A stretch of 64,000 nt of DNA from a virus. Each line of letters starts with the position of its first letter. Within the stretch, counting starts at the first letter, position 1. The position numbers and the translations under genes were made by a program. The stretch lies in the IMG/VR virus record IMGVR_UViG_3300037307_000719, positions 1 to 64,000 of that record. One strand, written 5' to 3'. The notes below the pieces were generated by a model. It was given only the letters and a program-made list of their open reading frames with translations, was not told the origin of the DNA and searched no databases. This document shows positions 2,836 to 53,128 of this stretch, piece after piece.

Positions 2836-4373
2836 GGGGTTAGGGCTTCGAGTTCGTCGAGCAGGGCGAGGTTGCGGGCGAAGGCCTCGGGGTGGATGGC
2901 GGTGATGTCCGGGGCGTCGGGGAGTTGGAAGTGGCGGGCGAGGTCTTCGAGGGAGCGGGTGGTATGGAGGGTTCCGGCGCGGTCGGGGTTGAAGATGAAG
3001 TGGATGGGGTTGAGGGTTGGGTGGTGGAGGGTGATGCGGAGGTCGGTGCCGCGGACAAGGATGGTTTCCTGGGAGCGTTTGCCGGCGTGGTATCTGGGGC
3101 GGGATTCCTCTTTTTTCCATTCGATGGTTTCGGTGGAGAGTTTGTATTTTTCCCCGGCTTGGAAGTGGTCGATAGTTTCGATGCAGAGGAGTTCCTCGGC
3201 GTCATCGATCCAGCCGATGCGCTGGATGGTGGAGACAGGGGAGAGCGGGGCGCGGTCTTGGTTGAAGGAGGCGAGAGCGGAATCGATGGCCTGGCGGGCG
3301 TCCGGGGAGATGGACCAGAGGCCGGAGTCGATGACTTCCTGGAGGGCGAGGCGGGTGCCGCGCTGGAGGGTGAGTTCGAGCGGGTGTTTGCGGTTGAGGG
3401 AGTGGAGGAAGGAGGAGAGGCGGGCGTCGATGGTGGAGGAGCGTTCCTGGAAGAGTGATACGTGGGTGCGGATGCGGCCGTCGGTGGCGAGGGTGACGTT
3501 GTCGCGGGAGTGGGATGGGTCGTTGCGGCGGATCATTTCGTCGCCACAGGCGTCGAAGTATCGGGAGGCGGCGGAGGCATCCCATGGCTGGGTGATGCAG
3601 CGGGCTTTGAAAAGATCGCGGCGGGCGGAGTCGAGCGCAGTGGCAAGTCGGTCTGGAGTAAGGGGGGTAATAAAGGTTTGTGTTTCGGGGCCGTTGGTGT
3701 GGTTGCCGGAAAGGTAGAGGACTCCGATGCGAAACGCCTTTTCTTGTTCGGGGCGGAAGCCGACGCCCGGGAAGAAGTTTGGGATGTCGAGCAAGAGCCA
3801 GGCGTGTTCAAAGCAGGAGGGATATTTGTTGTGAAGGAGATTGAGGGTGGAGGCATTGGCAATGAGCATGGCCTCGCCGTTGGTGCTCATAAGGTGAGGG
3901 AGCATGCGGAGGGTTGCGTGGGTGGAGTCGAGGGAGGTTTTGCCGTCGAGCCCTTGCGCAAGGGTTTCGTGGAGGAGTTTGACGGGCCAGTTGAGGGAGA
4001 AGGGAGGGTTGGCGAGGATGAGGTCGAAGCGGGTGTTGGTTTCGATGAGGAGGGGGTAGAGATCGAGCACGTCGCCGGTGAAGTGGGAGAAGATGGGATC
4101 GCAGCCGATGGGTTCCCATTGCTTGGGTTTGCCGGGGTGGGCGGCGGGATCGAGGTCGAGTGCCATGACCTCGCGGGTTTCCGGGGTAGCGACGCCGCGG
4201 AGCAGGGAGCCGTTGCCGCAGTGGAGGTCGAGCAGGGAGCGGCGGAAGGAGGGGAGAGCGGCGGCGAGGGCGCGCGCCCATGGTTCCGGGGTGAAGTATT
4301 GTTGGAGGCCTTTGGTGAGGGAGAGGGATGCGGGTGAAGTGAGGGCGGCGGGGGTGATGGATTGGCGTTTCAT
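2832..4373 (-). CDS. DNA methyltransferase, gamma-class (N6-adenine type), with large C-terminal presumed target-recognition domain
   Basis: 513 aa. AdoMet motif I is LLDLHCGNGSLL, followed by catalytic motif IV LANPPF (NPPF). A C-terminal extension of about 300 aa follows. Confidence 0.9.
   Translation of the reverse strand: MKRQSITPAALTSPASLSLTKGLQQYFTPEPWARALAAALPSFRRSLLDLHCGNGSLLRGVATPETREVMALDLDPAAHPGKPKQWEPIGCDPIFSHFTGDVLDLYPLLIETNTRFDLILANPPFSLNWPVKLLHETLAQGLDGKTSLDSTHATLRMLPHLMSTNGEAMLIANASTLNLLHNKYPSCFEHAWLLLDIPNFFPGVGFRPEQEKAFRIGVLYLSGNHTNGPETQTFITPLTPDRLATALDSARRDLFKARCITQPWDASAASRYFDACGDEMIRRNDPSHSRDNVTLATDGRIRTHVSLFQERSSTIDARLSSFLHSLNRKHPLELTLQRGTRLALQEVIDSGLWSISPDARQAIDSALASFNQDRAPLSPVSTIQRIGWIDDAEELLCIETIDHFQAGEKYKLSTETIEWKKEESRPRYHAGKRSQETILVRGTDLRITLHHPTLNPIHFIFNPDRAGTLHTTRSLEDLARHFQLPDAPDITAIHPEAFARNLALLDELEALTP
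3951..3964. repeat. Palindrome CCCTTGCGCAAGGG (14/14)
   Basis: Inside the methyltransferase gene (translated TLAQG). Confidence 0.95.
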
Positions 4374-6157: not shown

Positions 6158-6323
6158 GGCACTTGCGGTGGGTTTTGACGAAGTCCTTGGTGAGAAGCTC
6201 GAATTGACGGAGCTGGAGAGGGACGGGCAGTGGAGCGGCGGCTCCGCAATGCTCGCATTTCATGCGTGGGCGGAAGGAGTCTTTGGTGGTAAAGACGAGG
6301 TGATTGGGGATGGATTCAGACAT
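6123..6323 (-). CDS. Small Cys-containing hypothetical protein
   Basis: 66 aa, MSESIPNHLVF..MKCEHCG... The ATG at 6321-6323 overlaps the end of the VWA gene by 8 nt. The rest of ORF 6123..7046 is rejected. Confidence 0.45.
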   Translation of the reverse strand: MSESIPNHLVFTTKDSFRPRMKCEHCGAAAPLPVPLQLRQFELLTKDFVKTHRKCRPSSSSSSSPH

Positions 6324-7566
6324 TGATGGGGACGTGGATGGTGGTGCCGAAGGGAGCCTTGGCCTTGGGGTGGCCGAAGTTCGCCCAGAGGACGGGGAAG
6401 TCCGGGGCTCGATCCGGGAAGCAGCCTTCGAGGTCGGTGAGGAAGATGAGGCAGGCGGGAGGCTCCGGCAGGTCATTGATGGCATGGAAGACGGGTCGGA
6501 AGTCGGTTCCGCCGCCGCCTTCGGGGACGAATTGGAGGAGTGTGTCACCGGGTTTGAATTCCTCATGCTGATGGATTGTGGTGTCACAGGAGAGGAGGTG
6601 CATGGTTTCGGGGCGGCAGAGGTCCAGCACGCCTTGGAACTCGGAAAGGATGGCTTGGACGAGCTGCGGGTAGCAGAAGATGGAGCCGGAGGTATCGAAG
6701 GCACCGACGATGGGGCCGAGAGCCTCGGATTGGAGGGACGGGAGGATGAAGCCGCGCTGGAGGAAGCGGCGGTTGGGGCGGCGGAACGAGTAATCGTCCC
6801 GGGAGAGGCGGTGGCAGAACTCGCGCACGTAGTCGGTCCAAGGGACGGTGGGCTCGGTGAGTTCCTCGACGAGGGATTTGAGCCATGCGGGGAGGTTGCC
6901 GCGGTTTTTCTGGCGTTCGACGGTGGCGGCCTGGTGGACGGCGGCCTTCCAGTCGTCTTCGAGAGAATCGGACGGTGGCGGCGGATTCCCCCCTGAATTC
7001 CCTGTGCCGTCACCGTCCTTGGGTTCTCCGTTGCCTTGACCGTCACTGGAATCGTCCGGTGAATCCGAGGGATCGGATGCTGGTTGGTCGAAGGCTCCGG
7101 GAGATTGGTAGGAAGGGGGGGGCTGGCCGCCGTTTTTCTGTTGTTGCTGTTCTTCCTGCTCCATGAGGTGGTAGATTTCCTCGGTGGAAAGGCCGGCGTA
7201 TTGCGGCTTGCAGTGGCCGTTTGGGGGCATGGTGATGCGGCCGTCGGTGGCGTGCTGGAGTTTGGAGATGATTTCCCAGGATGCCTGGTCGGCGGCGGCG
7301 TTCCAGCGTTCGAGATCGCGCGCGCCGCGGCGCCAGAGGTGGCCTTGGGCGCAGTGGATGATGTTTTCGATCATCTGGCCGGCGAGCTGTGGCTCGGTGA
7401 GTTTGGCGGCGTAGTCCGGGTTGATGCGGATGGTTTTGCCGTCCACATGGGATGCGGGAGTGGCGGGATCGAGCGAGGATTCCAGCTTGAAGGCGAGGGT
7501 GCCGAAGAAAGGCGCGTCGAGGATGAGGTTGAGGCGGGCTTTTTTGAGGCGATCGTGGAGGGACAT
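6316..7566 (-). CDS. VWA-domain protein with N-terminal DUF2201-like putative metallopeptidase region
   Basis: 416 aa. The N-terminus carries LDAPFFG and HCAQGH. An acidic Pro/Gly/Asp linker follows. The C-terminal region has a MIDAS-like DxSxS motif (GAFDTSGS). Confidence 0.85.
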   Translation of the reverse strand: MSLHDRLKKARLNLILDAPFFGTLAFKLESSLDPATPASHVDGKTIRINPDYAAKLTEPQLAGQMIENIIHCAQGHLWRRGARDLERWNAAADQASWEIISKLQHATDGRITMPPNGHCKPQYAGLSTEEIYHLMEQEEQQQQKNGGQPPPSYQSPGAFDQPASDPSDSPDDSSDGQGNGEPKDGDGTGNSGGNPPPPSDSLEDDWKAAVHQAATVERQKNRGNLPAWLKSLVEELTEPTVPWTDYVREFCHRLSRDDYSFRRPNRRFLQRGFILPSLQSEALGPIVGAFDTSGSIFCYPQLVQAILSEFQGVLDLCRPETMHLLSCDTTIHQHEEFKPGDTLLQFVPEGGGGTDFRPVFHAINDLPEPPACLIFLTDLEGCFPDRAPDFPVLWANFGHPKAKAPFGTTIHVPINV

Positions 7567-8361: not shown

Positions 8362-9357
8362 TTACGAAAGCGCCTTGATGTTGTCGCAGGCCCAGTTGGT
8401 GAAGGCGGAGGTGTTTTGGAGGGAGGATTCGCGGGCGAGGGCATCCCTTACGGCGAAGACCTCGTGTTCCTTGGGCAGGCGTTTGAGGTATTTGGTGATG
8501 GAGTCGAAGTTGGTTTTGGTGGCGCGGAGGCTGAGGGCTACGGCGATGGCGAAGAGGGTTGCGGCGTCTTCGGCGGCGGGGACGCGGGCCTTGTCCGGGT
8601 TTTTGATGCATTCGTCGGGGTCCGGCAGGTTGCGATAGACCTTGAGGAAACCGAGGAACTCGGCGGCCCAGCCCTCGCCGCAGGCACCGGCGAGGATGTC
8701 ATGGGTGTGGAGACCGGCGGCAAAGAGGCGTGCGGCGGCGGCGACGGTGCGTGGGGATGGGGAATTGGTCAGTTCGCGGGTGGGTTTGAAGGCGTGGAGG
8801 ACGTCCATGCCGCGGAACATGACGAAGGCGAGGATTTCCTCGCGGATGTTGTTTTTCTGAGCCCAGCGGACCCACTCGACGTGGTCGGCGTGGAGTTCGA
8901 TGATGGTGTCCCAGCGGGATTTTACGGGTTCGAGGATGGACTGGACGCCGGCCATGTGGGAGGAGTCATTGGTTGCGCCGCAGAAGACGACTTCGTCGGA
9001 GATTTTGTGGCCGTCGATCTCGCGCTGCTGGATGAGCTGCATGAGGGCGGCCTGCACGGCATGGGGAGCCTGGCCGATGTCATCGATGAAGCAGATGGTG
9101 AGGGAATCCGCTTCGATGAGGCGGCGGAGCTGGCCGTAGGGGAGGAATTCCGCGTGTTTGCCGACGATGGCAGGGAGTCCCTTGAAGTCCACGGGGTCCG
9201 AGACGGCGGGGTGCATGATGACGAGGTCCGCCTTGGCGGAGCGAGCGGCGGCGGTGACGATGTCCGTCTTGCCGATGCCTGGAGCGCCCTTGATGAGGAT
9301 TTTGAGGCGGTTTTGGAAGGCGACGGAGAGGGTTTTGGTGAGTTGGGATGGTTTCAT
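8362..9357 (-). CDS. MoxR-like AAA+ ATPase
   Basis: Starts MKPSQL (ATG 9355-9357). Walker A is GAPGIGKT and Walker B is LTICFIDDI. The upstream part of ORF 8362..9558 is read-through of the repeat array. Confidence 0.9.
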   Translation of the reverse strand: MKPSQLTKTLSVAFQNRLKILIKGAPGIGKTDIVTAAARSAKADLVIMHPAVSDPVDFKGLPAIVGKHAEFLPYGQLRRLIEADSLTICFIDDIGQAPHAVQAALMQLIQQREIDGHKISDEVVFCGATNDSSHMAGVQSILEPVKSRWDTIIELHADHVEWVRWAQKNNIREEILAFVMFRGMDVLHAFKPTRELTNSPSPRTVAAAARLFAAGLHTHDILAGACGEGWAAEFLGFLKVYRNLPDPDECIKNPDKARVPAAEDAATLFAIAVALSLRATKTNFDSITKYLKRLPKEHEVFAVRDALARESSLQNTSAFTNWACDNIKALS

Positions 9358-9360
9358 AGG

Positions 9361-9421
9361 GGTAAAAGCTGAAATTTTGAAAAGCTGAAATGCTGAAAAG
9401 CTGAAATGCTGAAAAAAGAGG
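9361..9421 (+). repeat. GCTGAAAN octamer array (direct, about 6 units)
   Basis: Abuts the AAA gene start (9357). Confidence 0.9.
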
Positions 9422-9643
9422 TCAGTAGGCGATGTGGATGGGGGCGATTTTGCGGCGGTGCCAGCCGCGGCGGTGGCGCTCGCGGGCGGTGATTTTGCGG
9501 AGGCGTTGTGATTCCATGAGTGCCTGATGGCGGGCATGGCGGGATTGGAGGTCGGCAAGGGCTTGCTCGACGTTTTCCGGGGTGATTTCAGGGGTGGTTT
9601 TCAATTTCTTGGGCATGGTGTTGTTGGGTGCTTGGTTGGACAT
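9422..9643 (-). CDS. Small basic hypothetical protein; first gene after an AT-rich promoter region
   Basis: Starts MSNQAPNN (ATG 9641-9643). An alternative ATG lies at 9614-9616. Confidence 0.55.
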   Translation of the reverse strand: MSNQAPNNTMPKKLKTTPEITPENVEQALADLQSRHARHQALMESQRLRKITARERHRRGWHRRKIAPIHIAY

Positions 9644-13953: not shown

Positions 13954-14044
13954 CAAGATAGAGGAGGGTGGCGACGGCGGCGGTCCAGGCGAGCAGGGCG
14001 AGGATGGCGGGCAGGGCGGAGTCGTGGTGGAGGTGGAGTTTCAT
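13934..14044 (-). CDS. 36-aa hydrophobic peptide
   Basis: MKLHLHHDSALPAILALLAWTAAVATLLYLALITDH. ATGA overlap with the dnaN stop. Its 3' end and stop lie inside the GTGATCA array. Confidence 0.4.
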   Translation of the reverse strand: MKLHLHHDSALPAILALLAWTAAVATLLYLALITDH

Positions 14045-15168
14045 GCGGCGGCTTCGGTTTTGGTTTCGGTGGTGATGCGCATGGGCATGAGGACGACGAG
14101 GGCGGTGGGGTTGCGGAGGACACCGGGGGACATGGAATCCGAGAGGTGGAGGGTTCCGGGGACGGCTTCGATGGCGTCGGCGAGGAAGTGGGGGTTGAAG
14201 GCGATGGGTGGAGGGTTTCCCCTGAGCAGGGCGGTGGTGGTGAGGCGGCGGGATTTGCCTTGGGAGAGGTCGATGAAGTGAGGGAGGCGCGGAGTGAGGG
14301 AGAGGGCATCCGAGGAAGGGAGGGAACGGAGCCACTTGGCGACGCCGTCGGGGTCCGAAAACGTGACGGAGGAGGTGAGGGATTCCGGATGGGGGATGAC
14401 CTGGCGGTAGTTGGGGAAATTTCCGTCGATGAGTTTGGTGACGATTTGCCATTCCGGAGTGCGGACGGAAAGGAAGCGGACTTTGGTATGGTCCGAGTGG
14501 ATGGCAGCGGCGGCGGCAACGGGGCCGAGGCGTGCGATGGCGATGCAGGCTTTTGACGGGACGATGGCGGGTTCCGGAGTGACCTTGGCTGGGACGTGGA
14601 AGAGGCGGCGGCCATCGGTGGCGACGACGGTGCCGCCCATTTCAGGATCGAGCAGGGCGCCGTTGAGGACGTAGCGGGAGTCGTCCTTCGACTGGAAGGG
14701 GATGGAGGCGGCGATGACTTGGAGGGACTTTGCGGGGAGGAGGCAGAGGTGATCCGTGGATGGTATGGGCGGTGGGGCTGGGAACTCGGAAGTGGGGAAA
14801 GAATCGAGTTCGGCCCGGGCGGACATGCCCGCGCTGACGTAGAGGCAGACGGCGTCCGGGGTGTTTGAGGAGAAGCGTTTCGAGTGTGGGGCGAAGCTGA
14901 TGCGGACGGGTGTTTTGCGATCCGGCTTGATGGCGGCGAGCTGCTTGAAGTCGAGGCAGACGGAGCCCGGGGTGGAGGGATCATCAAGAAGGAACTGCTG
15001 GAACAGGGTGAGATCGAGGTCGGTGGAGGCGACTTCGAGATTGCGTCCGCAAGGGGAGACGGTGAAGCGGATGGAGCCGAGGATGGGCAGGCGGGGCTTG
15101 CCATCCATGGCGAGCTTGGCGCGGCGGAGGAGATCGGCAAAGACGGAGGATGGGATGGAGAGATACAT
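14041..15168 (-). CDS. dnaN: DNA polymerase III beta sliding clamp
   Basis: 375 aa. Contains KLIDGNFPNYRQVIP and the C-terminal VVLMPMR, both canonical clamp motifs. Confidence 0.93.
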   Translation of the reverse strand: MYLSIPSSVFADLLRRAKLAMDGKPRLPILGSIRFTVSPCGRNLEVASTDLDLTLFQQFLLDDPSTPGSVCLDFKQLAAIKPDRKTPVRISFAPHSKRFSSNTPDAVCLYVSAGMSARAELDSFPTSEFPAPPPIPSTDHLCLLPAKSLQVIAASIPFQSKDDSRYVLNGALLDPEMGGTVVATDGRRLFHVPAKVTPEPAIVPSKACIAIARLGPVAAAAAIHSDHTKVRFLSVRTPEWQIVTKLIDGNFPNYRQVIPHPESLTSSVTFSDPDGVAKWLRSLPSSDALSLTPRLPHFIDLSQGKSRRLTTTALLRGNPPPIAFNPHFLADAIEAVPGTLHLSDSMSPGVLRNPTALVVLMPMRITTETKTEAAA

Positions 15169-17300: not shown

Positions 17301-17864
17301 TTAGAAGTTGAGGAGGTGGTTGGCGAGATCAGCGGCGCGGCGGGGCCAGCGGCGGGCGAAGGTGGCGCGGACTTGATCCGGGGTGAGGGTGAGGCCGGAG
17401 GAGACGCGGACCTTGGAAGAGCGATTGGTGAAGGAGTATTCCACGCCGTCGCCATCAGTGACGGTGCGGGTGATGATTTCCACCCGGCGTTTCAGCTCCA
17501 CGGGTTTTCCGGCGTTCGGTCCCTTTTTTGGGATGCGGAATTGTGGGGGCGAGTGGGGGACAAAAAAGGTTTTGACGTCCTCACCCTTGAAAGCGGGCGT
17601 GGTGGAATAGGCGACGACCCATGAGGGCGGTGGAGGGTCTTGCCAGTCGATTACGCTGGATGCGGCGGCCATGGCGGCGAGGAGGTCCGGGTTTGCCAGG
17701 GTGCCCTTGGGTTTCGGGCGGGGGAGAGGCGGGTGCCAGGGGCCGTTTTCGTCCGGGTGGACATTGGCGCGGATCGGGCGGGGCGGGCCGGTGCGGGAAT
17801 ACACGGGCGGGGCCGCTTCATTCAAAATCCGGGCTCTTGCGATGTTGTGGGGATGATGTTTCAT
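17301..17864 (-). CDS. Hypothetical protein
   Basis: Starts MKHHPHNI (ATG 17862-17864), just after a terminator T-run. 187 aa. Confidence 0.7.
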   Translation of the reverse strand: MKHHPHNIARARILNEAAPPVYSRTGPPRPIRANVHPDENGPWHPPLPRPKPKGTLANPDLLAAMAAASSVIDWQDPPPPSWVVAYSTTPAFKGEDVKTFFVPHSPPQFRIPKKGPNAGKPVELKRRVEIITRTVTDGDGVEYSFTNRSSKVRVSSGLTLTPDQVRATFARRWPRRAADLANHLLNF

Positions 17865-17871
17865 GGCTTCA

Positions 17872-17900
17872 CAAAAAAGGGTGAGCGGTTGCCCGCTCAC
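17872..17900 (-). terminator. Rho-independent terminator (minus strand) after the moron gene
   Basis: Stem GTGAGCGG / CCGCTCAC with a GCAA loop on the minus-strand RNA, followed by TTTTTT. Confidence 0.75.
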
Positions 17901-17912
17901 CCTTGCGCAAGG
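17900..17912. repeat. Palindrome copy CCCTTGCGCAAGG (13)
   Basis: Lies between the moron gene stop and its terminator. Confidence 0.9.
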
Positions 17913-17926
17913 TTGCTTTTGATTTG

Positions 17927-18805
17927 TCAGGCTGTGATGTTTTCTGATTGGAAGGATTCCAAGGCGCGCACTAGGTCAAATTGCCAAGGCGCGCTTGAAA
18001 TGCTTTCCGCCCGCAAGGCGATTGCCCCTTGTTTTAGATAGGAGGCAAGCTCCGCCCGCTTTGAGCGTTCTTGCGCCTTGGAAAGGCCGTTGCCGCTTTG
18101 CGTTCGGGTGACAATGGCAATCACCAAGCGGCGGAACCCGTTCGCCTTGGAAACCGCTTTGCGGGATAGGTCCACCCGTTCCATCGCGGCAATGCAAGAT
18201 TCGATTTGTTCCAAGCGTTCCCGCAGGCGTTCCAATCTTTCCGCGTCGGTTTCCTTGTCATATTCTGGCAAGGCCAATTGCGCAAGGGTTGGCTGGGAAT
18301 CCGGTAAAGGCCGCCAACGGCGATTCAAATCAAGCCCCTTGCGGCCTTCCACCATGCGGAAGCATTCGCCAACATCCTCCCGATTCAAGGGGCGGGAAAA
18401 CGCATTGCGCGAGGCTAGCACTAGTCCCACGATGCCGGAAATTTCCGCCTTATCGGTTTCTGATAGGGTGATTGGTTGCCGCTTTCCTCGCTTTGCGCGG
18501 GTTGATTGAGCAATCAGGCAATCAAGGGTTTCCCGCCATGATTGGCCAAGGGGGACCGCAAGGCCGCCCGCGTCGGGATGTCCGCCGCGTGATTGCCGCT
18601 TGTCCCTTGTCCCCGTTAATGATCGGGAAACTAGGTTGGCGACAAATTCAACGGTTGCGAGCGCAATTGCGTTTTCGGTGGATTCCTTGGAAAGGTGAAT
18701 TTCCAAGCGGTTCCGCCAGTATTCCCCGCCGTGATTCTCTGAAAGATTCACGCGTGATGAAAAAGCGGCAAAAGCCGCGTGTGTGTCGTTAGGTTGCGTT
18801 TTCAT
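17927..18805 (-). CDS. Hypothetical protein with foreign codon usage (moron-like)
   Basis: 292 aa. It uses TTG/CTT, GAA, CAA and TCA codons, unlike the CTG/GAG/CAG-rich neighbours. It has its own upstream repeat region and a downstream terminator. Confidence 0.8.
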   Translation of the reverse strand: MKTQPNDTHAAFAAFSSRVNLSENHGGEYWRNRLEIHLSKESTENAIALATVEFVANLVSRSLTGTRDKRQSRGGHPDAGGLAVPLGQSWRETLDCLIAQSTRAKRGKRQPITLSETDKAEISGIVGLVLASRNAFSRPLNREDVGECFRMVEGRKGLDLNRRWRPLPDSQPTLAQLALPEYDKETDAERLERLRERLEQIESCIAAMERVDLSRKAVSKANGFRRLVIAIVTRTQSGNGLSKAQERSKRAELASYLKQGAIALRAESISSAPWQFDLVRALESFQSENITA

Positions 18806-18819
18806 GGCGACGAAAGGCT

Positions 18820-18963
18820 AGCGTTTCCGCTTTCGCTTGTCACCCTTAAAGGGTCGCAAGGCGCAAGGGATTCGCGGTTTTCGTCGGTTTTTTTCGATTT
18901 CCGCGCGGTTTCATAGCGTTTCCCTTGTCACCCTTAAAGGGGCGTAGGGCGCAAGGGATTCGG
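18820..18963. repeat. Two ~45-57-bp direct repeats (iteron/operator-like) upstream of the moron gene
   Basis: AGCGTTTCC..CTTGTCACCCTTAAAGGG.CG.A.GGCGCAAGGGATTCG occurs at 18820-18877 and 18915-18963. Each copy contains the dyad CCCTTAAAGGG and a palindrome half-site GCGCAAGGG. Confidence 0.7.
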
Positions 18964-18973
18964 AAATTTTAGC

Positions 18974-18986
18974 CCCTTGCGCAAGG
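18974..18986. repeat. Palindrome copy CCCTTGCGCAAGG (13)
   Basis: Lies at the upstream edge of the moron island. Confidence 0.9.
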
Positions 18987-19080
18987 TTTCAGAAACCCGG
19001 AAGATCAAGCATAATTATGAATAATTACGTTTGTGTGAAGGTGGTGGAGAGGCGGGGGGTGAGCCTGGTGCCGTCGGTGA

Positions 19081-19124
19081 GGTAAAACTGAAAGGCTGAA
19101 ACGCTGAAATGCTGAAAAAAGAGG
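19081..19124 (+). repeat. GCTGAAAN octamer array (direct)
   Basis: Lies just downstream of the stop of 19129..19398. Confidence 0.85.
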
Positions 19125-19128
19125 AGAT

Positions 19129-19398
19129 TCAGAGGGTGCGCTTTTTTGGGGTAGCCGTCCGGTTGGCCATCCAGTGAGAGGTGGCGAGGAAGTCTTCGGC
19201 ATTGGGGACGATGGAACCGGCGCGCAGGCGAGTGATGAGGTTGTGGTTCGAGCGGATGGTGCGGCGGCCCTGGGTGGTGAGGAAGCGGGCGAGATCCGCG
19301 CGGGAGCCGCGGGCCTCGGTTGCGGCAAGGAACAAGGGGCGCCATCCGTCGAGAAAAGGGGTGTGGGTGAGGCGTTGTTTGCCGGGAGCGGTTTTCAT
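19129..19398 (-). CDS. Hypothetical protein (possible DNA-binding)
   Basis: 89-aa ORF. ATGA overlap at 19395-19398. Confidence 0.65.
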   Translation of the reverse strand: MKTAPGKQRLTHTPFLDGWRPLFLAATEARGSRADLARFLTTQGRRTIRSNHNLITRLRAGSIVPNAEDFLATSHWMANRTATPKKRTL

Positions 19399-19601
19399 GG
19401 AGAGTTGGGGACGTGGGGTTTGATGTTTTGGATGTAGTTTTGGGTGCGTTTGGATTCGAGGCGGTTGAGGCGGAGGTGTTCGAGGCGGTCGGTCTGGGAG
19501 GTGGTGACCGGGAATTGGAGGCGGGTGTAGAGGAAGAGGAGGAGGGACGCGAGCAGGACGAGGAGAAGCCAGAAGGGAGGGTGTTTGTAGCGTTTTTGCA
19601 T
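19395..19601 (-). CDS. Small membrane-anchored protein
   Basis: 68 aa with an N-terminal hydrophobic helix, FWLLLVLLASLLLFLY. Confidence 0.6.
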   Translation of the reverse strand: MQKRYKHPPFWLLLVLLASLLLFLYTRLQFPVTTSQTDRLEHLRLNRLESKRTQNYIQNIKPHVPNSP

Positions 19602-19625
19602 GGGGTGAAGGTAGGGCGGGAGCGG

Positions 19626-19639
19626 CCCTTGCGCAAGGG
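19626..19639. repeat. Palindrome CCCTTGCGCAAGGG (14/14)
   Basis: Lies in the early/late divergent region. Confidence 0.95.
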
Positions 19640-19649
19640 GTTTGTCATC

Positions 19650-19694
19650 TTAAAAGCTGAGATACTGAAATGCTGAAACGCTGAAAAGAAGAGG
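19650..19694 (+). repeat. GCTGAAAN octamer array (direct)
   Basis: Lies in the divergent region between the early and late blocks. Confidence 0.85.
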
Positions 19695-19711
19695 GGATGG
19701 TGCGGCTGTCG

Positions 19712-19716
19712 TTGAC
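19712..19716 (+). promoter_or_regulatory. TTGAC box, 19 nt before ATG 19731
   Basis: TTGACGCGGAGGGCGGGATATG. Confidence 0.6.
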
Positions 19717-19730
19717 GCGGAGGGCGGGAT

Positions 19731-19994
19731 ATGGCGGCGGAGAACTGGATGGAGATTTACCGGAGTTACGAGGCGGCGGAGCTGAATGATGAGATCGCGC
19801 AGTTGAAGAAGGACTTGCGCGGGGCGCTGACGGCTCAGGGGAGCGGGAGTGTGAGTCACCAGCGGGACGTGGTGATGCTGGAGAACCGGCTGCAAGCGGC
19901 GACGCGGGTGAAGAACGAGCGGGCGAACCGAGGCAAGGGGAACGGGATGAAGGGGACGGTGGATTTTTCGAGGAACGGCTGGGGGAGGTTGTGA
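19731..19994 (+). CDS. gpW-like head-tail joining protein (positional call)
   Basis: 87-aa ORF immediately upstream of the portal gene. A TTGAC box lies 19 nt upstream. Confidence 0.6.
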   Translation: MAAENWMEIYRSYEAAELNDEIAQLKKDLRGALTAQGSGSVSHQRDVVMLENRLQAATRVKNERANRGKGNGMKGTVDFSRNGWGRL

Positions 19995-20300: not shown

Positions 20301-21992
20301 ATGCCGAAGTTGAATTTTCTGGAGCGGAGTTTGAGTGGAGTGGCTCCGCAGTGGGCGACGGATCATGCGGTGGCGAGGGCGAGGCTGAAGATGTTCGAGG
20401 CGGAGCCGGACTGGGCGAGCAGCTCGGTGAGGGGGAGGGCGGCGACGGCTGGAGACCAGGCGAACTCGGAAAGCTGGAAGAAGCAGCGGGAGCGGATCGA
20501 GGCGATCTGGGAGGGCCGGGCGATGGAGGAGAACCTGTGCGTGATCGCGGGGCTGCTGGACAAGATTTCGATGTACACCATCGGCAACCTGGAATACCGT
20601 CCGCAGACGGGGGACAAGGCGGCGGACCGGGAGTATGCGGATTATTTCCACGAGAAGTGCGGGGAGATCGATGTGACGGGGCGGCACCGGCTGAAAAAGC
20701 TGGCGGAGCTGGCGGTGCGGAGCATGTTCCGGGACGGGGAGTTCGGGTTTGTGGAGAGGCAGGAGGGACTGGACTACAAGCTCCAGGCGATCGAGGGGGA
20801 CCGAATCGGGAACCCGAACCAGCTCTCGCAGGCGGAGGACAACATCGGGGGGATCAAGATCGACATTGGGACGGGGCGGGTGACGGGGTATGAAATCCAC
20901 CGGAGGACGCGGACGAACCAATACCGGCTGGAGGGGACGATCGGGCCGGAGCGGTTCATCCACCTGTTCCGGCCGACGCGCTGCGACCAGTATCACGGGG
21001 TCTCGATTTTGAAGCCGGTGATTCCGCACGCGAAAGACCTCTACGAGTTGTTCGGCTATGAGAAGGTGGCGGCGAAGTTTGCGGCGAGTTTTGCGGGTTT
21101 GTTGAAGTCCGCCGATCCGTTCAGCCCGGACGGGGCAAACACGTGGGATACGCGGGGGACAGGCTCGAAGCTGCCAATGATGCAGGCGCAGGCAGGCACG
21201 CTGCAACGCATCAGCAAGGGGGAGGAAGTGGTGTTCGCGCCGGGGACGCAGCGGCCGAGCGGGGCGTTCATCGCGCTGGTGCAGGCGATTTTCCGTGAGA
21301 TCGCGCTGGGGACGAACCTGCCGTATGGGTTCATCTATGACATGGCGGTGTTTGGCGGGGTGACGGCGCGGCTGGAGACGCAACAGGCGGACCGGGTGTT
21401 CCAGCGTTTCCGGGAGATGCTGGTGGACACGATGCTGGAGCGGGTGAAGCGGAAGGTGCTGCTGGCGGGCATCGCCAAGCGGGAGATCCGGGCGGTGAAG
21501 ATGTGGAACAAGGGGAGCTGGAACTTCGGCGCGAGCCTGACAGGGGACATCGGCCATCAGGTGCAGGCGGACTCGACGATGGTGACCTTCGGGGTGAAGA
21601 CGCGGACGCGCTGGGCGGCGGAGCTGGGCGAGACGTTCGTGGACCTTGCGGACGAGGCGGCGAGCGAGATCGAAACCTTGCAACAGATTTCCGCGGAGCG
21701 GAACATTCCGCTGGAGCTGCTGAATGCGAGCCTGACGAACCCGACGGAGCTGGTGGCGAACCTGGCGAAGGCGCAAGCGGGGATTTCCGACGAGCCGGAG
21801 CCGCCGCCGGGGATGATCGGCCAGATTGGCGACAAGGGGGCGAAGACGGTGATTGATCTGCTGACGGCGGTGGGCCGGGGCGAGATCGACCGCCAGAGCG
21901 CGCGGATGACGCTGATTACGGTTCACGGGATGGAGCCGAGAGCGGCGGAGGCGGTGCTGCCGGACCCGATGAGGAGCCTACCGGCGGGGTAA
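20301..21992 (+). CDS. Portal protein (lambda-type)
   Basis: 563 aa. Position and overall pattern resemble lambda-family portals. TTGAC box plus GGGAGG upstream. Confidence 0.9.
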   Translation: MPKLNFLERSLSGVAPQWATDHAVARARLKMFEAEPDWASSSVRGRAATAGDQANSESWKKQRERIEAIWEGRAMEENLCVIAGLLDKISMYTIGNLEYRPQTGDKAADREYADYFHEKCGEIDVTGRHRLKKLAELAVRSMFRDGEFGFVERQEGLDYKLQAIEGDRIGNPNQLSQAEDNIGGIKIDIGTGRVTGYEIHRRTRTNQYRLEGTIGPERFIHLFRPTRCDQYHGVSILKPVIPHAKDLYELFGYEKVAAKFAASFAGLLKSADPFSPDGANTWDTRGTGSKLPMMQAQAGTLQRISKGEEVVFAPGTQRPSGAFIALVQAIFREIALGTNLPYGFIYDMAVFGGVTARLETQQADRVFQRFREMLVDTMLERVKRKVLLAGIAKREIRAVKMWNKGSWNFGASLTGDIGHQVQADSTMVTFGVKTRTRWAAELGETFVDLADEAASEIETLQQISAERNIPLELLNASLTNPTELVANLAKAQAGISDEPEPPPGMIGQIGDKGAKTVIDLLTAVGRGEIDRQSARMTLITVHGMEPRAAEAVLPDPMRSLPAG

Positions 21993-22051
21993 AAGCTGAA
22001 AAGCTGAAAGGCTGAAAAGCTGAAAGGCTGAAAAGCTGAAAGGCTGAAAGG
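21987..22051 (+). repeat. GCTGAAAN octamer array (direct, 7 units, most regular)
   Basis: The portal stop TAA lies inside GGGTAAAAGC. Units alternate GCTGAAAA and GCTGAAAG. Confidence 0.95.
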
Positions 22052-22063
22052 CCGGGCGCGGCG

Positions 22064-22068
22064 TTGAC
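22064..22068 (+). promoter_or_regulatory. TTGAC box, 19 nt before ATG 22083
   Basis: TTGACTTCCGGTGGCAGGGATG. Confidence 0.6.
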
Positions 22069-22082
22069 TTCCGGTGGCAGGG

Positions 22083-27770: not shown

Positions 27771-28952
27771 ATGAGCACGAACACCATTAGCAAGTTTCCG
27801 GCGGTTTATCATTTCGAGAGCGGGGCGAGCAGCCTGAACGTGGACAAGGAGAAGGGGGTGATCTATGGCGTGAGCCTGATTACTTCCGGCATCACGGCCA
27901 AGGGTCATGACCTTGAGGTGGATGGCAAGACGCTGGAGCAGATGCTCTCCTGCGCGGAGAAGAAGGGGAAGATCCCGGTGAAGTGGAATCACAAGACGGG
28001 AGCGGACGCGGTGAGCGGGTATTTGAGAAACTTCCGGATCGAGGGGCGCAAGCTGGTGGGGGACTGGAAGCTGCTGAAAAGCCACGAGCGGTATCAGCAC
28101 GCGCTGGAGCTGGCGAGCGAGATGCCGGAATGCCTTGGTCTCTCGACCTCGTTCCGAGGGGAGGACGAGGTGGTGGGTGACCGGAAGTTCGCACGCTGCA
28201 CGGAGCTGGTGAGCGCGGACCTGGTGGCGAGTCCGGCGGCGAATCCGAACGGGTTTTTCGAGGAAGGGCCGGGCGAGGTTGACAGGCAGGGAAAAGGCAT
28301 GGCCGAGAAAGCACAAACAAACAGCGCCGGAACCCCGTCCCAAGAGAAGGAATTCTCGCTTGCGGATGTCATGGCCGGTATTTCGCAAATCAATCAACGC
28401 ATCGACGGGATCGAGGAAAAGGTAACGTCCTTTGAAGCGTTTCAGGATGAAGTGATCCGGTCCTTTGAGGAGGGCATGGATGATGACGACGGGGGTGGAG
28501 AAGGCGCGGGCGGCGAGGCCGACGTGGAATTCTCCAGCGGTGCGGAAGCGCTGCAATACCTGCATGAGAAGCTCGCCTCCATCGAGGACGCGAAGGAAAG
28601 CGCGAAGATCGAGCGCGCCTTTGCCGCCTACGACGAGAAGGTCGAGGCACTCATCGAGCTGAACGAGCAACTCGCCACGGAGAACGCGGCGATGGCCGAC
28701 GCTCTGATGGAGTTCCAGGAAAAGACCGGACGCGAAGTGCATTTCAGCGTGGGCGCGGAAGGCGGCTACGAACACCAGCTTTCCGAGACAACTCCGGACG
28801 GACGCAAGCTCACCGAGTTCGAGGCCCGCTGCAAGCAGTTCGAGGCAAACGGCAAGAGCGAGACCGAGGCCATCACGCTGGCCATGAAGGAAGATCCGAA
28901 GCGCTACCAGAAGCACTTGCAGGCGCTCGGGATCATCAACCGCAGCCTGTAA
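27771..28952 (+). CDS. Prohead protease (HK97/S78-like) fused to a scaffold-like coiled-coil
   Basis: The N-terminus has IPVKWNHKTG (His motif) and GLSTSF (Ser motif). The C-terminal half is acidic coiled-coil. It lies upstream of the decoration and capsid genes. Confidence 0.8.
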   Translation: MSTNTISKFPAVYHFESGASSLNVDKEKGVIYGVSLITSGITAKGHDLEVDGKTLEQMLSCAEKKGKIPVKWNHKTGADAVSGYLRNFRIEGRKLVGDWKLLKSHERYQHALELASEMPECLGLSTSFRGEDEVVGDRKFARCTELVSADLVASPAANPNGFFEEGPGEVDRQGKGMAEKAQTNSAGTPSQEKEFSLADVMAGISQINQRIDGIEEKVTSFEAFQDEVIRSFEEGMDDDDGGGEGAGGEADVEFSSGAEALQYLHEKLASIEDAKESAKIERAFAAYDEKVEALIELNEQLATENAAMADALMEFQEKTGREVHFSVGAEGGYEHQLSETTPDGRKLTEFEARCKQFEANGKSETEAITLAMKEDPKRYQKHLQALGIINRSL

Positions 28953-28991
28953 CCCGGAACGCCGAACCAACACGAGGAAGGAACCAACAAC

Positions 28992-29594
28992 ATGCAAAAC
29001 ACATCTCCAGTATTCTCGGTGCCCGCCAGTGCGGCGGACCTAGCGCCCTACCGCAGGGCGAAAATCACGGCCACCGGAGCGGCTTACGCCGGTTCCGGCG
29101 AGGCGGCCGTAGGAACCCTGCTGCCGGGTGATCCGGGCGACGAGGAACAAAGCGCCGTGCAGGATCTCACCTTCGGCGTCCACTTCGCCACCATGGGAAG
29201 CAACACCGACATCGCCATCGGCGACGAGGTGGAGGCTGCCGCGGACGGCAAGATCGTGAAACTTTCCGCCGGACCCGCCGTGGGCGTGGCTCTGGAAGCG
29301 GGGGTTGATGAGAACGACGTGATCCGCGTCAAGTATTACCCGAACCCGGGCACCTTCAAGGTCGTCGCGGCGGGCATTCATGCCTGGGCGGGTGGAGCGG
29401 CCACGACGGACTCCATCGCCGTGGCGGGGCTGCTGGCGACCGACATTGTCCTTGTGACGCTGTCGGCGCGGGCCTCGACCGAAACGCTGGTGCTGGCCGT
29501 GAACGACGCGGCCAACGACCAGATCGACCTGACGCTGAGTGCCAACGGCACCAACGCCACCACCAAACTCAGCTACGCGGTGCTCCGCGCCTGA
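28992..29594 (+). CDS. Head decoration / cement protein (DUF2190-like)
   Basis: 200 aa. Contains GDEVEAAADGKIVKL..AVGVALEAG. Positioned between the protease and the capsid gene. Confidence 0.75.
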   Translation: MQNTSPVFSVPASAADLAPYRRAKITATGAAYAGSGEAAVGTLLPGDPGDEEQSAVQDLTFGVHFATMGSNTDIAIGDEVEAAADGKIVKLSAGPAVGVALEAGVDENDVIRVKYYPNPGTFKVVAAGIHAWAGGAATTDSIAVAGLLATDIVLVTLSARASTETLVLAVNDAANDQIDLTLSANGTNATTKLSYAVLRA

Positions 29595-29631
29595 TAGAAA
29601 CGGAACCAGAATCTGAAAGGACAAGACACAG

Positions 29632-30606
29632 ATGTACAACAATTCGACAGCGGTTTATCGTCCGGACATCCAGGCGTTCCTCATGCAGGCGCAGGGTGCG
29701 GAGAAGTATTTCATTGCGGACAAGGTATTCCCTGTCCTCAACGTCGGCAAGCGTTCCGGGCAATACCCTCGCATCAAGATCGGCGAGGGCAGCCTGATGC
29801 GCAAGGACATCACCAAGCGCAACGCGACGGGCACCTACAACGAGGTTTCCCGCAAGCATAGCTGGGATGACTACAAGCTGGTGGACCGGGGACTCAAGGA
29901 GCGCATCGACGACGACAAGGCGGCGGAGATGGAGGACTTCTTCGACCTCGAAGTGACCACGGCGGACCTGGTGCGGCGGATGATGATGATCGACCGCGAG
30001 GTGAATGCGGCGGAGACATTGATCGATACCAATGTGTTCGCGGCAGAGAACGCCAAGGTGAACTACACCGAGGCTCTGATCGCCACCAACGACTTCCCGT
30101 ATGACATGAATCTCGCCATCGAGAAGCTGTTGCTGCGGGGCTGCGAGGTGAACGCCATCGTGATGACCCACAAGGTCTGGAACTACGTGCGCCGGACGAA
30201 GCTGCTGCAAGACTACATCTTCGGCTCGCAGGACACGACCAAGCGCAAGCTCATCAAGCGCAGCGACGTGGGCAGCGCATTTTCCGAGGAAAACAACCGC
30301 GAGATCGAGATCATCGTCGGCAGTGCGGGATACGACAGCTCGAACCGGGCGAAGGACACTCCATCGCTCAGCCACATCTGGCCGACCAGCCACATCTGGG
30401 TGGGCTGTCTGAAGGGCGGCGACTTCAAGGCGGGCGGCGTGGGCCGGACGCTGAGCTGGACACAGTCCGTGAAGAGCGGCCTGTTCGAGACCGAGACCTG
30501 GCGCGACGAGGACCGCCGCGGAGACATGGTGCGCGTGCGCAGCTACTCCAACGAGAAGGTCATCGACGAGACGGCCGGACAGCTTGTGACGACCAACTTT
30601 GCCTGA
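29632..30606 (+). CDS. Major capsid protein (HK97 fold; gpE / Mu gpT-like)
   Basis: 324 aa. Called from position and pattern (FPVLNV..YPRI...). A strong terminator follows. Confidence 0.88.
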   Translation: MYNNSTAVYRPDIQAFLMQAQGAEKYFIADKVFPVLNVGKRSGQYPRIKIGEGSLMRKDITKRNATGTYNEVSRKHSWDDYKLVDRGLKERIDDDKAAEMEDFFDLEVTTADLVRRMMMIDREVNAAETLIDTNVFAAENAKVNYTEALIATNDFPYDMNLAIEKLLLRGCEVNAIVMTHKVWNYVRRTKLLQDYIFGSQDTTKRKLIKRSDVGSAFSEENNREIEIIVGSAGYDSSNRAKDTPSLSHIWPTSHIWVGCLKGGDFKAGGVGRTLSWTQSVKSGLFETETWRDEDRRGDMVRVRSYSNEKVIDETAGQLVTTNFA

Positions 30607-30642
30607 TGAGGCAAAAGCAGAGGTAGCAGAGTAGAGGGCAAT

Positions 30643-30678
30643 GCGCCACCGGGAGGGACACCGGTGGCGCATTTTTTT
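30643..30678 (+). terminator. Rho-independent terminator after the major capsid gene
   Basis: 10-bp perfect stem GCGCCACCGG / CCGGTGGCGC followed by ATTTTTTT. Confidence 0.85.
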
Positions 30679-30687
30679 GCCGGATGA

Positions 30688-30692
30688 TTGAC
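30688..30692 (+). promoter_or_regulatory. TTGAC box, 21 nt before ATG 30709
   Basis: TTGAC-A-CCCTTGCGCAAGGG-C-ATG. Confidence 0.55.
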
Positions 30693-30693
30693 A

Positions 30694-30707
30694 CCCTTGC
30701 GCAAGGG
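30694..30707. repeat. Palindrome CCCTTGCGCAAGGG (14/14)
   Basis: Lies between the TTGAC box and ATG 30709. Confidence 0.95.
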
Positions 30708-30708
30708 C

Positions 30709-31050
30709 ATGGGCAGCGCGTTTTGGGAAAACTTCGATGCGGCCAACCAGGTTGCCGTGGACGTGATGGGCGAGGAAGTCCTGCTGGACGGACATTCGGT
30801 AACGGGAGTGGTGGACCCGCAAAGCTACCAGGAAGGAGCGGCGGTGGGAGGACGCAAGGGCATCCTGCGCTGCGGCATTCTGGTGACGCGGGAGGTGATG
30901 GATGCGGTGCCGCCACGGGACGGCATGGTGGTGGAGCTGCGAGGGCTGATCGGGCGGGTGGAAAGCTGGGAGCCGCTCGGGCCGATGGCCGGGGTGCTGC
31001 TCAATGTGGGGCCATACAACCGCTGGAGCGGCGAGGTTCCCGGGGTGTGA
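30709..31050 (+). CDS. Head-tail connector / head completion protein (putative)
   Basis: 113 aa from ATG 30709. The leader is TTGAC box, then palindrome, then ATG. Confidence 0.65.
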   Translation: MGSAFWENFDAANQVAVDVMGEEVLLDGHSVTGVVDPQSYQEGAAVGGRKGILRCGILVTREVMDAVPPRDGMVVELRGLIGRVESWEPLGPMAGVLLNVGPYNRWSGEVPGV

Positions 31051-31051
31051 A

Positions 31052-31065
31052 CCCTTGCACAAGGG
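31052..31065. repeat. Palindrome variant CCCTTGCACAAGGG
   Basis: Lies 1 nt after the stop at 31050. Confidence 0.9.
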
Positions 31066-31069
31066 CGTG

Positions 31070-31074
31070 TTGAC
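31070..31074 (+). promoter_or_regulatory. TTGAC box, 19 nt before ATG 31089
   Basis: TTGACACAGCCCGGGAGGCATG. Confidence 0.6.
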
Positions 31075-31088
31075 ACAGCCCGGGAGGC

Positions 31089-51758: not shown

Positions 51759-51812
51759 GGAGGTGGGTGAAGGTAAGTGTTCTGAGGATCATCATCGGGA
51801 TCAAAGGGGAGG

Positions 51813-53126: not shown

Positions 53127-53128
53127 GC

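What the first reader, a model, noticed from the sequence alone, without database searches (positions are those of the whole stretch)
17872..19020. Self-contained foreign-composition island (moron) bracketed by palindrome copies
Gene 17927..18805 uses a different codon dialect from its neighbours (TTG/CTT Leu, GAA, CAA, TCA). It has its own AT-rich promoter-like stretch (about 19000-19020, CATAAT on the minus strand), its own upstream direct repeats and its own terminator (17872-17900). Copies of CCCTTGCGCAAGG lie at both edges (17900-17912 and 18974-18986). A half-site occurs in each upstream repeat and a partial copy at 18278-18288. I recognise no motif in the 292-aa product. Autonomous units of this kind in temperate phages often encode defence, anti-defence or lysogenic-conversion functions.
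Basis: partly seen in the sequence, partly recalled or inferred. Interest (0 to 1): 0.65.

Follow-up and report, generated by a model that had tools for sequence, protein, structure and literature searches.

The report
Conserved odd-composition early phage gene
A 292-residue gene with its own promoter, terminator and unusual codon usage in a Verrucomicrobia phage is a fixed core gene of this phage group, not a recently acquired add-on, and probably encodes a new kind of nucleic-acid-binding early regulator whose function is still untested.

Summary
Gene 17927-18805 (minus strand) has GC3 0.58 and no strand skew, against GC3 0.75-0.88 and strong skew in its neighbours. It uses TTG/CTT/CTA, GAA, CAA and TCA codons. 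A strong intrinsic terminator follows it, and two 44-nt direct repeats and an AT-rich dyad precede it.

The moron reading fails. Family members occupy the same slot in all 8 related loci recovered, and each shows the same odd composition and a terminator with a different stem sequence. The 'bracketing' palindrome is a genome-wide element: 26 copies against 0.4 expected.

Two findings are new. A sigma-70-like promoter (-35 GTGACA, 17 nt, -10 TAGCCT, 9 nt, ATG) is conserved in all seven loci with upstream sequence and predicts a leaderless mRNA. The proximal direct repeat overlaps its -35.

The protein is basic and all-alpha, and it matches nothing in Pfam, PHROGs, NCBIfam, PADLOC, PDB or Foldseek.

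My best reading, held at moderate confidence, is an autoregulated early regulator at the head of the early/replication operon. An origin-binding initiator and an N-like antiterminator remain possible.

The parts
17927..18805 (-). 292-aa gene (P0001). The product is basic (pI 9.6) and predicted all-alpha, and belongs to a very small family.
   Evidence: ORF and translation. Family size: 8 clusters among 5.8 billion proteins and 11 representatives among 1.84 billion. No family or fold match. AF2 mean pLDDT 78.8. pI.
17867..17904 (-). Intrinsic terminator: 12-bp stem 17904-17877, GCAA loop, then a U-run. The next gene's ATG (17864) follows within 8 nt of the U-run.
   Evidence: A hairpin plus U-tract follows the gene in 8 of 8 loci, each with a different stem sequence.
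17901..17912 (.). Copy of the genome-wide palindrome CCTTGCGCAAGG. It overlaps the base of the terminator stem by 4 nt.
18815..18843 (-). Proximal sigma-70-like promoter: -35 GTGACA (18843-18838), 17-nt spacer, -10 TAGCCT (18820-18815), then 9 nt to the ATG. No Shine-Dalgarno sequence, so a leaderless or near-leaderless mRNA is predicted.
   Evidence: Regex scan: only 2 such geometries in 64.9 kb. The same geometry sits at the gene start in L001, L003, L005 and L006 and, by alignment, in L002 and L004.
18831..18874 (.). Proximal 44-nt direct repeat. It contains the dyad ACCCTT-T-AAGGGT and overlaps the -35.
   Evidence: The unit occurs only at this locus in the window.
18875..18918 (.). A-tract-rich spacer between the two repeats.
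   Evidence: Sequence. A-rich spacers of 84-93 nt are also seen in L001-L005.
18919..18962 (.). Distal 44-nt direct repeat.
18975..18986 (.). Second local copy of the genome-wide palindrome.
19006..19039 (.). AT-rich inverted repeat (arms 19006-19018 and 19021-19033) with promoter-like hexamers on both strands. This is a possible distal promoter and operator.
   Evidence: Position-equivalent AT-rich dyads occur in L002, L003, L005 and L006.
19088..19117 (+). One array of the genome-wide octamer repeat CTGAAANG. It is a generic intergenic element and is not specific to this unit.
Evidence: family D6. The same array is seen in L002.
19129..19398 (-). Upstream, co-directional 89-aa gene ('HTH89'). 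It is conserved and travels with the 292-aa gene as part of one exchangeable cassette. That it has a helix-turn-helix is my inference from the residue pattern only.
   Evidence: No Pfam match.
17301..17864 (-). Downstream 187-aa gene ('p187'), the third member of the exchangeable cassette. It has normal phage composition.

Best explanation
The locus is a conserved core transcription unit of a group of temperate Verrucomicrobia phages. It sits at the head of the leftward early/replication operon. In order, that operon encodes a 68-aa membrane-like protein, an 89-aa protein, this 292-aa gene, a terminator, a 187-aa protein, a 330-aa acidic protein, a sliding clamp, an AAA_5 ATPase, a DUF2201 protein and a methyltransferase. 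Shown here: the gene has a private sigma-70-type promoter placed so that its mRNA has essentially no leader. A strong intrinsic terminator ends the unit. The patch of lower GC3 without skew coincides with this unit and recurs in every relative. Inferred: the basic, all-alpha product binds nucleic acid. It probably acts at the two locus-private direct repeats, one of which overlaps its own -35, and so regulates itself. Because the downstream genes start right after its terminator with no promoter of their own that I could see, it may also control entry into the early/replication operon. Its N-terminal 100 residues, the 89-aa and 187-aa neighbours and the repeat sequence all differ by phage type, as expected for a specificity cassette of the immunity-region kind.
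For: Synteny holds in 8 of 8 loci. The compositional exception is conserved and confined to the unit. The promoter geometry is conserved and nearly unique in the genome. The terminator is kept in 8 of 8 loci through different stem sequences. The repeat unit and the AT-rich dyad occur only here in the window. Each phage has two near-identical copies 84-93 nt apart, with type-specific upstream parts and a shared CCCyTTTA core next to the -35. All 24 family members are basic, pI 8.8-10.7, with the charge in residues 66-115. Cassette pattern against the window: the 89-aa, 292-aa and 187-aa proteins are 70/54/53% identical in L001 but 42/30/26% in L006, whereas portal, gpW, p330, clamp and p428 are closer in L006.
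Against: No DNA-binding domain or known fold was detected. Pfam, PHROGs, NCBIfam and PDB sequence search gave nothing. The only significant structure hit was an uncharacterised phage protein in BFVD (E 8e-4), and the best PDB fold hits had E >= 0.3. Binding to the repeats is inferred only from their position. A more classical candidate for the lysogeny switch lies elsewhere, next to the integrase: a low-GC 133-aa ORF at 56243-56644 facing a divergent small ORF. L006 has no direct repeats in its short upstream region. No expression data could be obtained.
Confidence: 0.45

Rival explanations
1. Replication initiator with its origin. The 292-aa protein binds the two direct repeats as iterons and melts the adjacent AT-rich or A-tract DNA. 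It then recruits the phage's clamp, primase and polymerase genes' products. The lower GC would reflect the need for DNA that opens easily.
For: The gene heads an operon that contains the sliding clamp. The upstream region has direct repeats with an A-tract spacer and an AT-rich dyad. The repeats are type-specific, and the protein has a variable N-terminal part and a conserved C-terminal part. No other initiator was recognised among the proteins I scanned. The gene body has the highest density of CTTGC/CCTTG words in the genome (27 per kb against a median near 7).
Against: There are only two repeats, and the proximal one overlaps a promoter -35, which is the layout of an operator. The model is all-alpha, with no winged-helix Rep, O-type or DnaD-type match. 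The internal DNA repeats encode an ERLERLRERLEQ coiled-coil segment, so they follow from the protein sequence. Cumulative GC skew shows no turning point here. The primase and polymerase-like genes lie 30 kb away.
Confidence: 0.2
2. N-like processive antiterminator. The protein is made from its own promoter and lets RNA polymerase read through its own terminator, and through others marked by the dispersed palindrome hairpins, into the early genes.
For: The layout matches the lambda pL-N-tL1 arrangement (my own knowledge): first substantial gene of the early-left operon, directly followed by a strong terminator in 8 of 8 loci, with the next gene's ATG 6-10 nt after the U-tract in the type-A loci. 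The protein has arginine/lysine-rich segments, TRDKRQSRGG and RAKRGKRQP. In the window, L001, L002 and L004 the palindrome overlaps the base of the terminator stem by 3-4 nt, so the two hairpins would compete.
Against: The palindrome type does not follow the protein type. The window, L005 and L006 share CCTTGCGCAAGG across the two protein types, while L001 and L003 carry CCTAGCGCTAGG. In L003 and L007 the palindrome and terminator do not overlap. There is no homology to N, Q or other antiterminators, and no evidence of RNA binding.
Confidence: 0.1
3. One reading: a moron, meaning an accessory, horizontally acquired unit that encodes a defence, anti-defence or lysogenic-conversion function.
For: The unit has its own promoter and terminator and a deviant composition. 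Its composition resembles that of the candidate lysogeny genes near the integrase (GC3 0.61-0.65). This would fit expression in the lysogen.
Against: It is present in the same slot in every relative examined, including about 30%-identity homologues in otherwise closer genomes. There are no PADLOC hits. A genuine moron-like insert in this phage group looks different: L001 carries a TIR-domain gene pair on the opposite strand beside the portal gene, and the window has no such pair.
Confidence: 0.05

Closest known systems
Morons of lambdoid phages (HK97/HK022-type, as defined by Hendrix and colleagues; my own knowledge)
   Same: An autonomous promoter-gene-terminator unit whose nucleotide composition differs from its flanking genes.
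   Different: Morons are accessory: present in one phage and absent from relatives whose flanking genes are then adjacent. This unit is present in all 8 related loci and keeps its odd composition in each.
Lambda cI expressed from PRM (my own knowledge)
   Same: A leaderless mRNA from a host sigma-70 promoter, with regulatory sites overlapping the -35. It belongs to an exchangeable specificity (immunity) cassette, and its GC is lower than that of the lytic genes.
   Different: No helix-turn-helix or S24 peptidase domain was detected. The gene is co-directional with the early genes instead of divergent. It has two direct repeats about 88 nt apart, not three dyad operators. A more classical candidate switch lies near the integrase at about 56 kb.
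Lambda N gene followed by tL1 (my own knowledge)
   Same: First substantial gene of the early-left operon, followed immediately by an intrinsic terminator that downstream genes must pass. The protein is basic and comes in allelic types.
   Different: 292 aa against 107 aa. No nut-like boxA/boxB element was identified. The hairpin motif type does not co-vary with the protein type.
Iteron-type initiators with adjacent origins (lambda O/ori; plasmid RepA, RepE and pi; my own knowledge)
   Same: About 290 aa. Direct repeats plus AT-rich or bent DNA lie next to the gene. The repeats are type-specific, and the protein has a variable N-terminal half.
   Different: No winged-helix or O-type homology and an all-alpha model. 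There are only two repeats, and one overlaps the gene's own -35.
Uncharacterised protein A0A6J5NHW8 of an uncultured Caudovirales phage (BFVD)
   Same: The only significant structural neighbour: Foldseek E 8.4e-4, probability 1.00.
   Different: 16% identity and TM-score only 0.25. It has no known function, so it adds nothing on function.

Membership tests
Moron (accessory autonomous transcription unit) | Own promoter and own terminator | tested here: met
   Conserved -35/17/-10 promoter at 18815-18843. Intrinsic terminator 17867-17904, kept in 8 of 8 loci.
Moron (accessory autonomous transcription unit) | Nucleotide composition differs from the flanking genes | tested here: met
   GC3 0.58 and skew -0.03, against 0.75-0.88 and |0.2-0.45| in the flanks.
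Moron (accessory autonomous transcription unit) | Present in some relatives and absent in others, where the flanking genes are then adjacent | tested here: not met
   A family member is present in the same slot in the window and in L001-L007. No relative with an empty site was found.
CI/LexA-type phage repressors | N-terminal XRE/Cro-type helix-turn-helix and C-terminal S24 peptidase or dimerisation domain | tested here: not met
   No Pfam, NCBIfam or PHROG match at E <= 10 for the protein or for 16 family members.
Iteron-binding Rep initiators (Rep_3/RepA/pi, lambda O) | Winged-helix DNA-binding domains detectable by sequence or fold | tested here: not met
   No Pfam or PDB sequence hits. The AF2 model is all-alpha. 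No significant Foldseek PDB hit.
Iteron-binding Rep initiators (Rep_3/RepA/pi, lambda O) | Array of three or more iterons next to an AT-rich unwinding element | tested here: inconclusive
   Two direct repeats, an A-tract spacer and an AT-rich dyad are present. There are only two copies, and the proximal one overlaps a -35.
Sigma-70 family factors | Regions 2 and 4 detectable by profile or fold | tested here: not met
   No Sigma70 Pfam hit. Sigma chains recur among the Foldseek hits but only at E 0.3-5 and TM <= 0.17.
Known anti-phage defence systems (PADLOC-DB v2) | Match to any defence-protein model | tested here: not met
   No hits at E <= 0.1 for six family members and four neighbouring proteins.
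N-type antiterminators | Arginine-rich motif that binds a nut/boxB RNA hairpin and confers terminator read-through | not testable with these tools
   Basic segments and a hairpin next to the terminator exist. Binding and read-through need experiments.

The most novel reading that the evidence does not exclude
The unit encodes the founding member of a new family of phage master regulators. The protein could be a promoter-proximal DNA binder or an antiterminator that gates the whole early/replication operon. On this reading, the gene's synonymous sites are actively held away from the genome-wide strand bias in every lineage, either because the gene is read by unmodified host machinery as a leaderless message or because the gene body carries DNA-level signals.
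Probability: 0.3. Interest if true: 0.6.

Novelty: new variant of a known kind. Interest (0 to 1): 0.4.

Why it matters
This case shows that the usual signature of a moron (own promoter, own terminator, deviant codon usage) can belong to an ancient core gene. Composition alone therefore misclassifies such units, and a presence/absence test in relatives is needed. It also points to a testable control point in a phage group that has not been studied experimentally. That control point has four parts: a near-unique host-type leaderless promoter, a pair of private repeats, a protein of unknown fold, and a terminator that the replication genes must pass. Finally, the compositional exception is conserved across proteins that have diverged to about 30% identity. 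This needs an explanation, because mutational strand bias alone should have erased it.

Tried and rejected
**Homology and fold searches**
- Pfam, PHROGs, NCBIfam and PADLOC found nothing above noise.
- A profile of 16 family members against PDB sequences gave only IST1 at E 0.5.
The only significant hit was an uncharacterised phage protein.
- I considered a sigma-factor reading, from the recurrent weak Foldseek hits and an 'EDVGECF' resemblance to region 4.2 that I recalled from memory. I dropped it for lack of any profile support.

**Does the protein bind the dispersed palindrome?**
- I rejected this as the main idea. Palindrome type (TTGCGCAA, TAGCGCTA, TAACGCTA or TTACGCGTAA) does not follow protein type.

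**Gene-body iterons**
- The internal repeats encode a coiled-coil ERL repeat.
- CTTGC/CCTTG words are about 2-fold enriched over synonymous-codon shuffles. Other genes also show positive Z scores, so I cannot separate this from codon-context bias.

**Upstream genes in L003 and L005**
- Neither is similar to the window's integrase.

**Searches that returned little**
- Phage GenBank blastn: no match.
- IMG/VR and GTDB genome scans with the family profile: no hits.
- A metagenome scan with the p428 profile found only 4 loci, none with enough upstream flank.
- Rfam on 17700-19800: nothing.
- One literature search found nothing on this phage group.

- The genome search could not be centred on this virus record or on L005.

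Full report
**What the window is.** The window covers 64,000 of the 64,939 bases of a single-contig virus record. The following genes were identified by Pfam and PHROGs:
- a lambda-type portal (20301-21992, +);
- small and large terminase subunits (57086-59409, +);
- a tyrosine integrase (53342-54361, +);
- a DnaG-type primase (51813-53297, -);
- a sliding clamp (14041-15168, -);
- an AAA_5 ATPase (8362-9558, -);
- a DUF2201 protein (6316-7566, -);
- a DNA methyltransferase-like protein (2832-4373, -).

A distant homologue of the target protein lies in a prophage of a Verrucomicrobiota metagenome-assembled genome. This agrees with earlier notes that call this a temperate Verrucomicrobia phage. 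Minus-strand early genes run from about 19,600 down to 2,800. The plus-strand virion genes start at 19,731.

The ORF at 17927-18805 (-) encodes 292 residues. Its GC3 is 0.58 and its coding GC skew is -0.03. The genes on either side have GC3 0.75-0.88 and |skew| 0.2-0.45. In 150-nt windows the deviant patch runs from about 17,900 to 19,030, which is the transcription unit and no more. The 89-aa gene upstream (GC3 0.79, skew -0.38) and the 187-aa gene downstream (GC3 0.76, skew -0.33) are normal.

- Leu: TTG 0.32, CTT 0.29, CTA 0.23, against CTC 0.74 in the neighbours;
- GAA 0.88, CAA 0.92, TCA 0.41.

One neighbour was read one base out of frame in that pooled control, so the control fractions are approximate.

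The remaining features are all present:
- The terminator is a 12-bp stem with a GCAA loop and a U-run.
- The two 44-nt direct repeats are 91% identical and 88 nt apart.

**The palindrome does not bracket this island in particular.** CCTTGCGCAAGG, allowing one mismatch, occurs 26 times in the window against 0.39 expected. By my gene list, about half the copies are intergenic. Eight of the nine variants differ only at the central CG. Relatives carry their own versions:
- CCTAGCGCTAGG in L001 and L003;
- CCTAACGCTAGG in L002 and L004;
- CCCTTACGCGTAAGGG in L007;
- the window's version in L005 and L006.

A copy does follow the gene's stop codon in the five type-A loci and in L007, but copies also occupy many other intergenic gaps. 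It is a general punctuation element of these phages.

**It is not a moron.** The protein family is tiny: 8 clusters among 5.8 billion proteins, 11 representatives among 1.84 billion, and 17 proteins by profile search. Every member whose context I could read sits in the same place. It is preceded by one or two small genes. It is followed by homologues of the 187-aa and 330-aa proteins, a roughly 58-aa gene, the clamp, RadC, a roughly 290-aa protein, AAA_5 and DUF2201. An IMG/VR contig recovered through a neighbouring gene also carries a family member upstream. That makes 8 of 8 loci.

In every one, the homologue has GC3 0.53-0.66 and almost no skew, while most of its downstream neighbours have GC3 0.72-0.88 and clear skew. 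In L005 the contrast is weaker: 0.66 for the homologue, and one downstream gene at 0.62. The composition is therefore a long-standing property of this gene, not a trace of recent import.

A genuine moron-like insert does exist in this phage group, for comparison. L001 has a TIR-domain gene and a 271-aa gene with GC3 about 0.55. They lie on the opposite strand between the portal and the next head gene. In the window those two genes are 81 nt apart.

**New anatomy: the promoter and the upstream region.** In the window it reads -35 GTGACA (18843-18838), a 17-nt spacer, -10 TAGCCT (18820-18815), then 9 nt and the ATG, with no Shine-Dalgarno sequence.

A regex for this geometry finds only two sites in the whole 64.9-kb genome. 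One is this start and the other lies inside another gene. The same regex finds the start of the homologue in L001, L003, L005 (with a start 38 codons upstream of the annotated one) and L006. L002 and L004 have TAGACA-17-TAACTT-9-ATG by alignment. The predicted mRNA is leaderless or nearly so.

The proximal direct repeat overlaps the -35, and the distal copy lies 84-93 nt upstream across an A-tract-rich spacer. Both copies share a CCCyTTTA core, and their upstream halves differ between phage types. In the window the repeat unit and the AT-rich dyad occur nowhere else. About 200 nt upstream of the gene, the AT-rich dyad (19006-19033) carries promoter-like hexamers. It has positional counterparts in L002, L003, L005 and L006. 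It may be a second, distal promoter with an operator, but this is inference.

**New anatomy: the terminator.** A strong hairpin plus U-tract follows the stop codon in all 8 loci, with different stem sequences in each. This is good evidence that termination here matters. In the five type-A loci (the window and L001-L004) the next gene's ATG lies 6-10 nt after the U-tract, and I found no promoter for it. The downstream operon therefore probably depends on read-through, though this too is inference.

**A specificity cassette.** For portal, gpW, p330, clamp and p428, L006 is closer to the window than L001 is: 74/80/65/48/68% against 64/60/38/39/59% identity. For the 89-aa, 292-aa and 187-aa proteins the order reverses: 70/54/53% in L001 against 42/30/26% in L006. 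The first 100 residues of the 292-aa protein are undetectable in L005 and L006. These three genes therefore move together as an exchangeable module, in the manner of lambdoid immunity or replication-specificity regions. Only the middle gene has the odd composition, however, so exchange does not explain the composition.

**What the protein is.** All 24 aligned members are basic, pI 8.8-10.7, with the charge concentrated in residues 66-115. The better AF2 model (pLDDT 78.8) contains only helices:
- a three-helix N-terminal part;
- a low-confidence but highly conserved loop (RDKRQSKGGNPDAGGLAVP);
- a short central helical unit around the invariant LSxTDxxE and CF motifs;
- four long C-terminal helices.

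No sequence or fold search gave an informative match.

**Reading.** I am confident (about 0.9) that this is a conserved, insulated core transcription unit read from a host-type promoter. I am only moderately confident (about 0.45) that its product is a nucleic-acid-binding regulator that acts on its own promoter-proximal repeats and gates the early operon.

An origin-binding initiator remains a serious rival at about 0.2. In its favour are the repeats, bent and AT-rich DNA, the position ahead of the clamp gene, and the absence of any other recognised initiator. Against it are that there are only two repeats, that one overlaps a -35, and that no winged-helix fold is predicted.

An N-like antiterminator is possible at about 0.1. 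The gene-then-terminator layout and the overlap of the palindrome with the terminator base in four loci favour it. The palindrome type not tracking the protein type counts against it.

A classical switch candidate lies elsewhere: a low-GC 133-aa ORF at 56243-56644 facing a divergent small ORF, beside the integrase. This argues against the target gene being the main prophage repressor.

**Unexplained.** One DNA strand of this genome is G-rich almost throughout, whatever the direction of the genes. The target unit escapes this bias in every lineage, although its protein has diverged as much as its neighbours have. Mutation bias alone cannot produce that pattern. Some selection on the gene's synonymous sites, or on its DNA, must be at work. 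The gene also has the genome's highest density of CTTGC/CCTTG words (27 per kb against a median near 7). That is about twice what synonymous-codon shuffles give, and the same words top an unbiased 5-mer test across six orthologues. I could not separate this from codon-context bias.

**Limits.** Only eight related loci exist in the collections searched. Promoter and operator assignments rest on sequence conservation alone.

Noticed in passing
window 1-64000: The plus strand is G-rich ((G-C)/(G+C) of 0.2-0.5) across most of the genome, whatever the gene direction. As a result, minus-strand genes use C-ending codons and plus-strand genes use G-ending codons. Patches without skew lie at about 1-2200, 17900-19030, 28500-38500, 51800-53300 and 63400-64939.
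   Followed up: partly
window 55926-56644: Candidate classical lysogeny switch in the lowest-GC part of the genome, near the integrase. A 133-aa ORF (56243-56644, +; GC 0.49; weak CENP-B_N helix-turn-helix hit, E 0.037) faces a divergent 67-aa ORF (55926-56129, -) across an AT-rich gap.
   Followed up: partly
L001 3759-5299: A relative carries a TIR-domain gene and a 271-aa gene (GC3 about 0.55) on the opposite strand between the portal and the next head gene. The window has no such insert (21992 to 22074). This is what a real moron looks like in this phage group.
   Followed up: partly
window-wide; L001-L007: The dispersed palindrome changes between relatives while staying symmetrical: CCTTGCGCAAGG, CCTAGCGCTAGG and CCCTTACGCGTAAGGG. 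L002 and L004 consistently carry an asymmetric form, CCTAACGCTAGG. Within the window, 8 of the 9 variants differ only at the central CG.
   Followed up: partly
window 17864-17877 and equivalents in L001-L004, L007: A conserved motif, UUUUUUGUGAAG, joins the terminator U-tract to the next gene. That gene's ATG follows 6-10 nt after the U-tract in the window and L001-L004, so its start site sits directly behind a terminator.
   Followed up: no
L005 10800-10850: In the MAG prophage, a third copy of that phage's own promoter-proximal repeat (CTGTGAAGTCTCAACCCC..) lies after the terminator, just upstream of the 187-aa homologue. In that lineage the repeat may therefore also control the next gene.
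   Followed up: no
window 19395-19601 and 19129-19398: Two small co-directional genes head the early operon: a 68-aa protein with a hydrophobic segment, and an 89-aa conserved basic protein whose residue pattern resembles a Cro/XRE helix-turn-helix. Neither has a Pfam match.
   Followed up: partly
L005 9887-10744: The annotated 247-aa homologue (P0016) probably starts 38 codons upstream, at 9887. That start has the conserved -35/17/-10/9-nt promoter geometry.
   Followed up: partly
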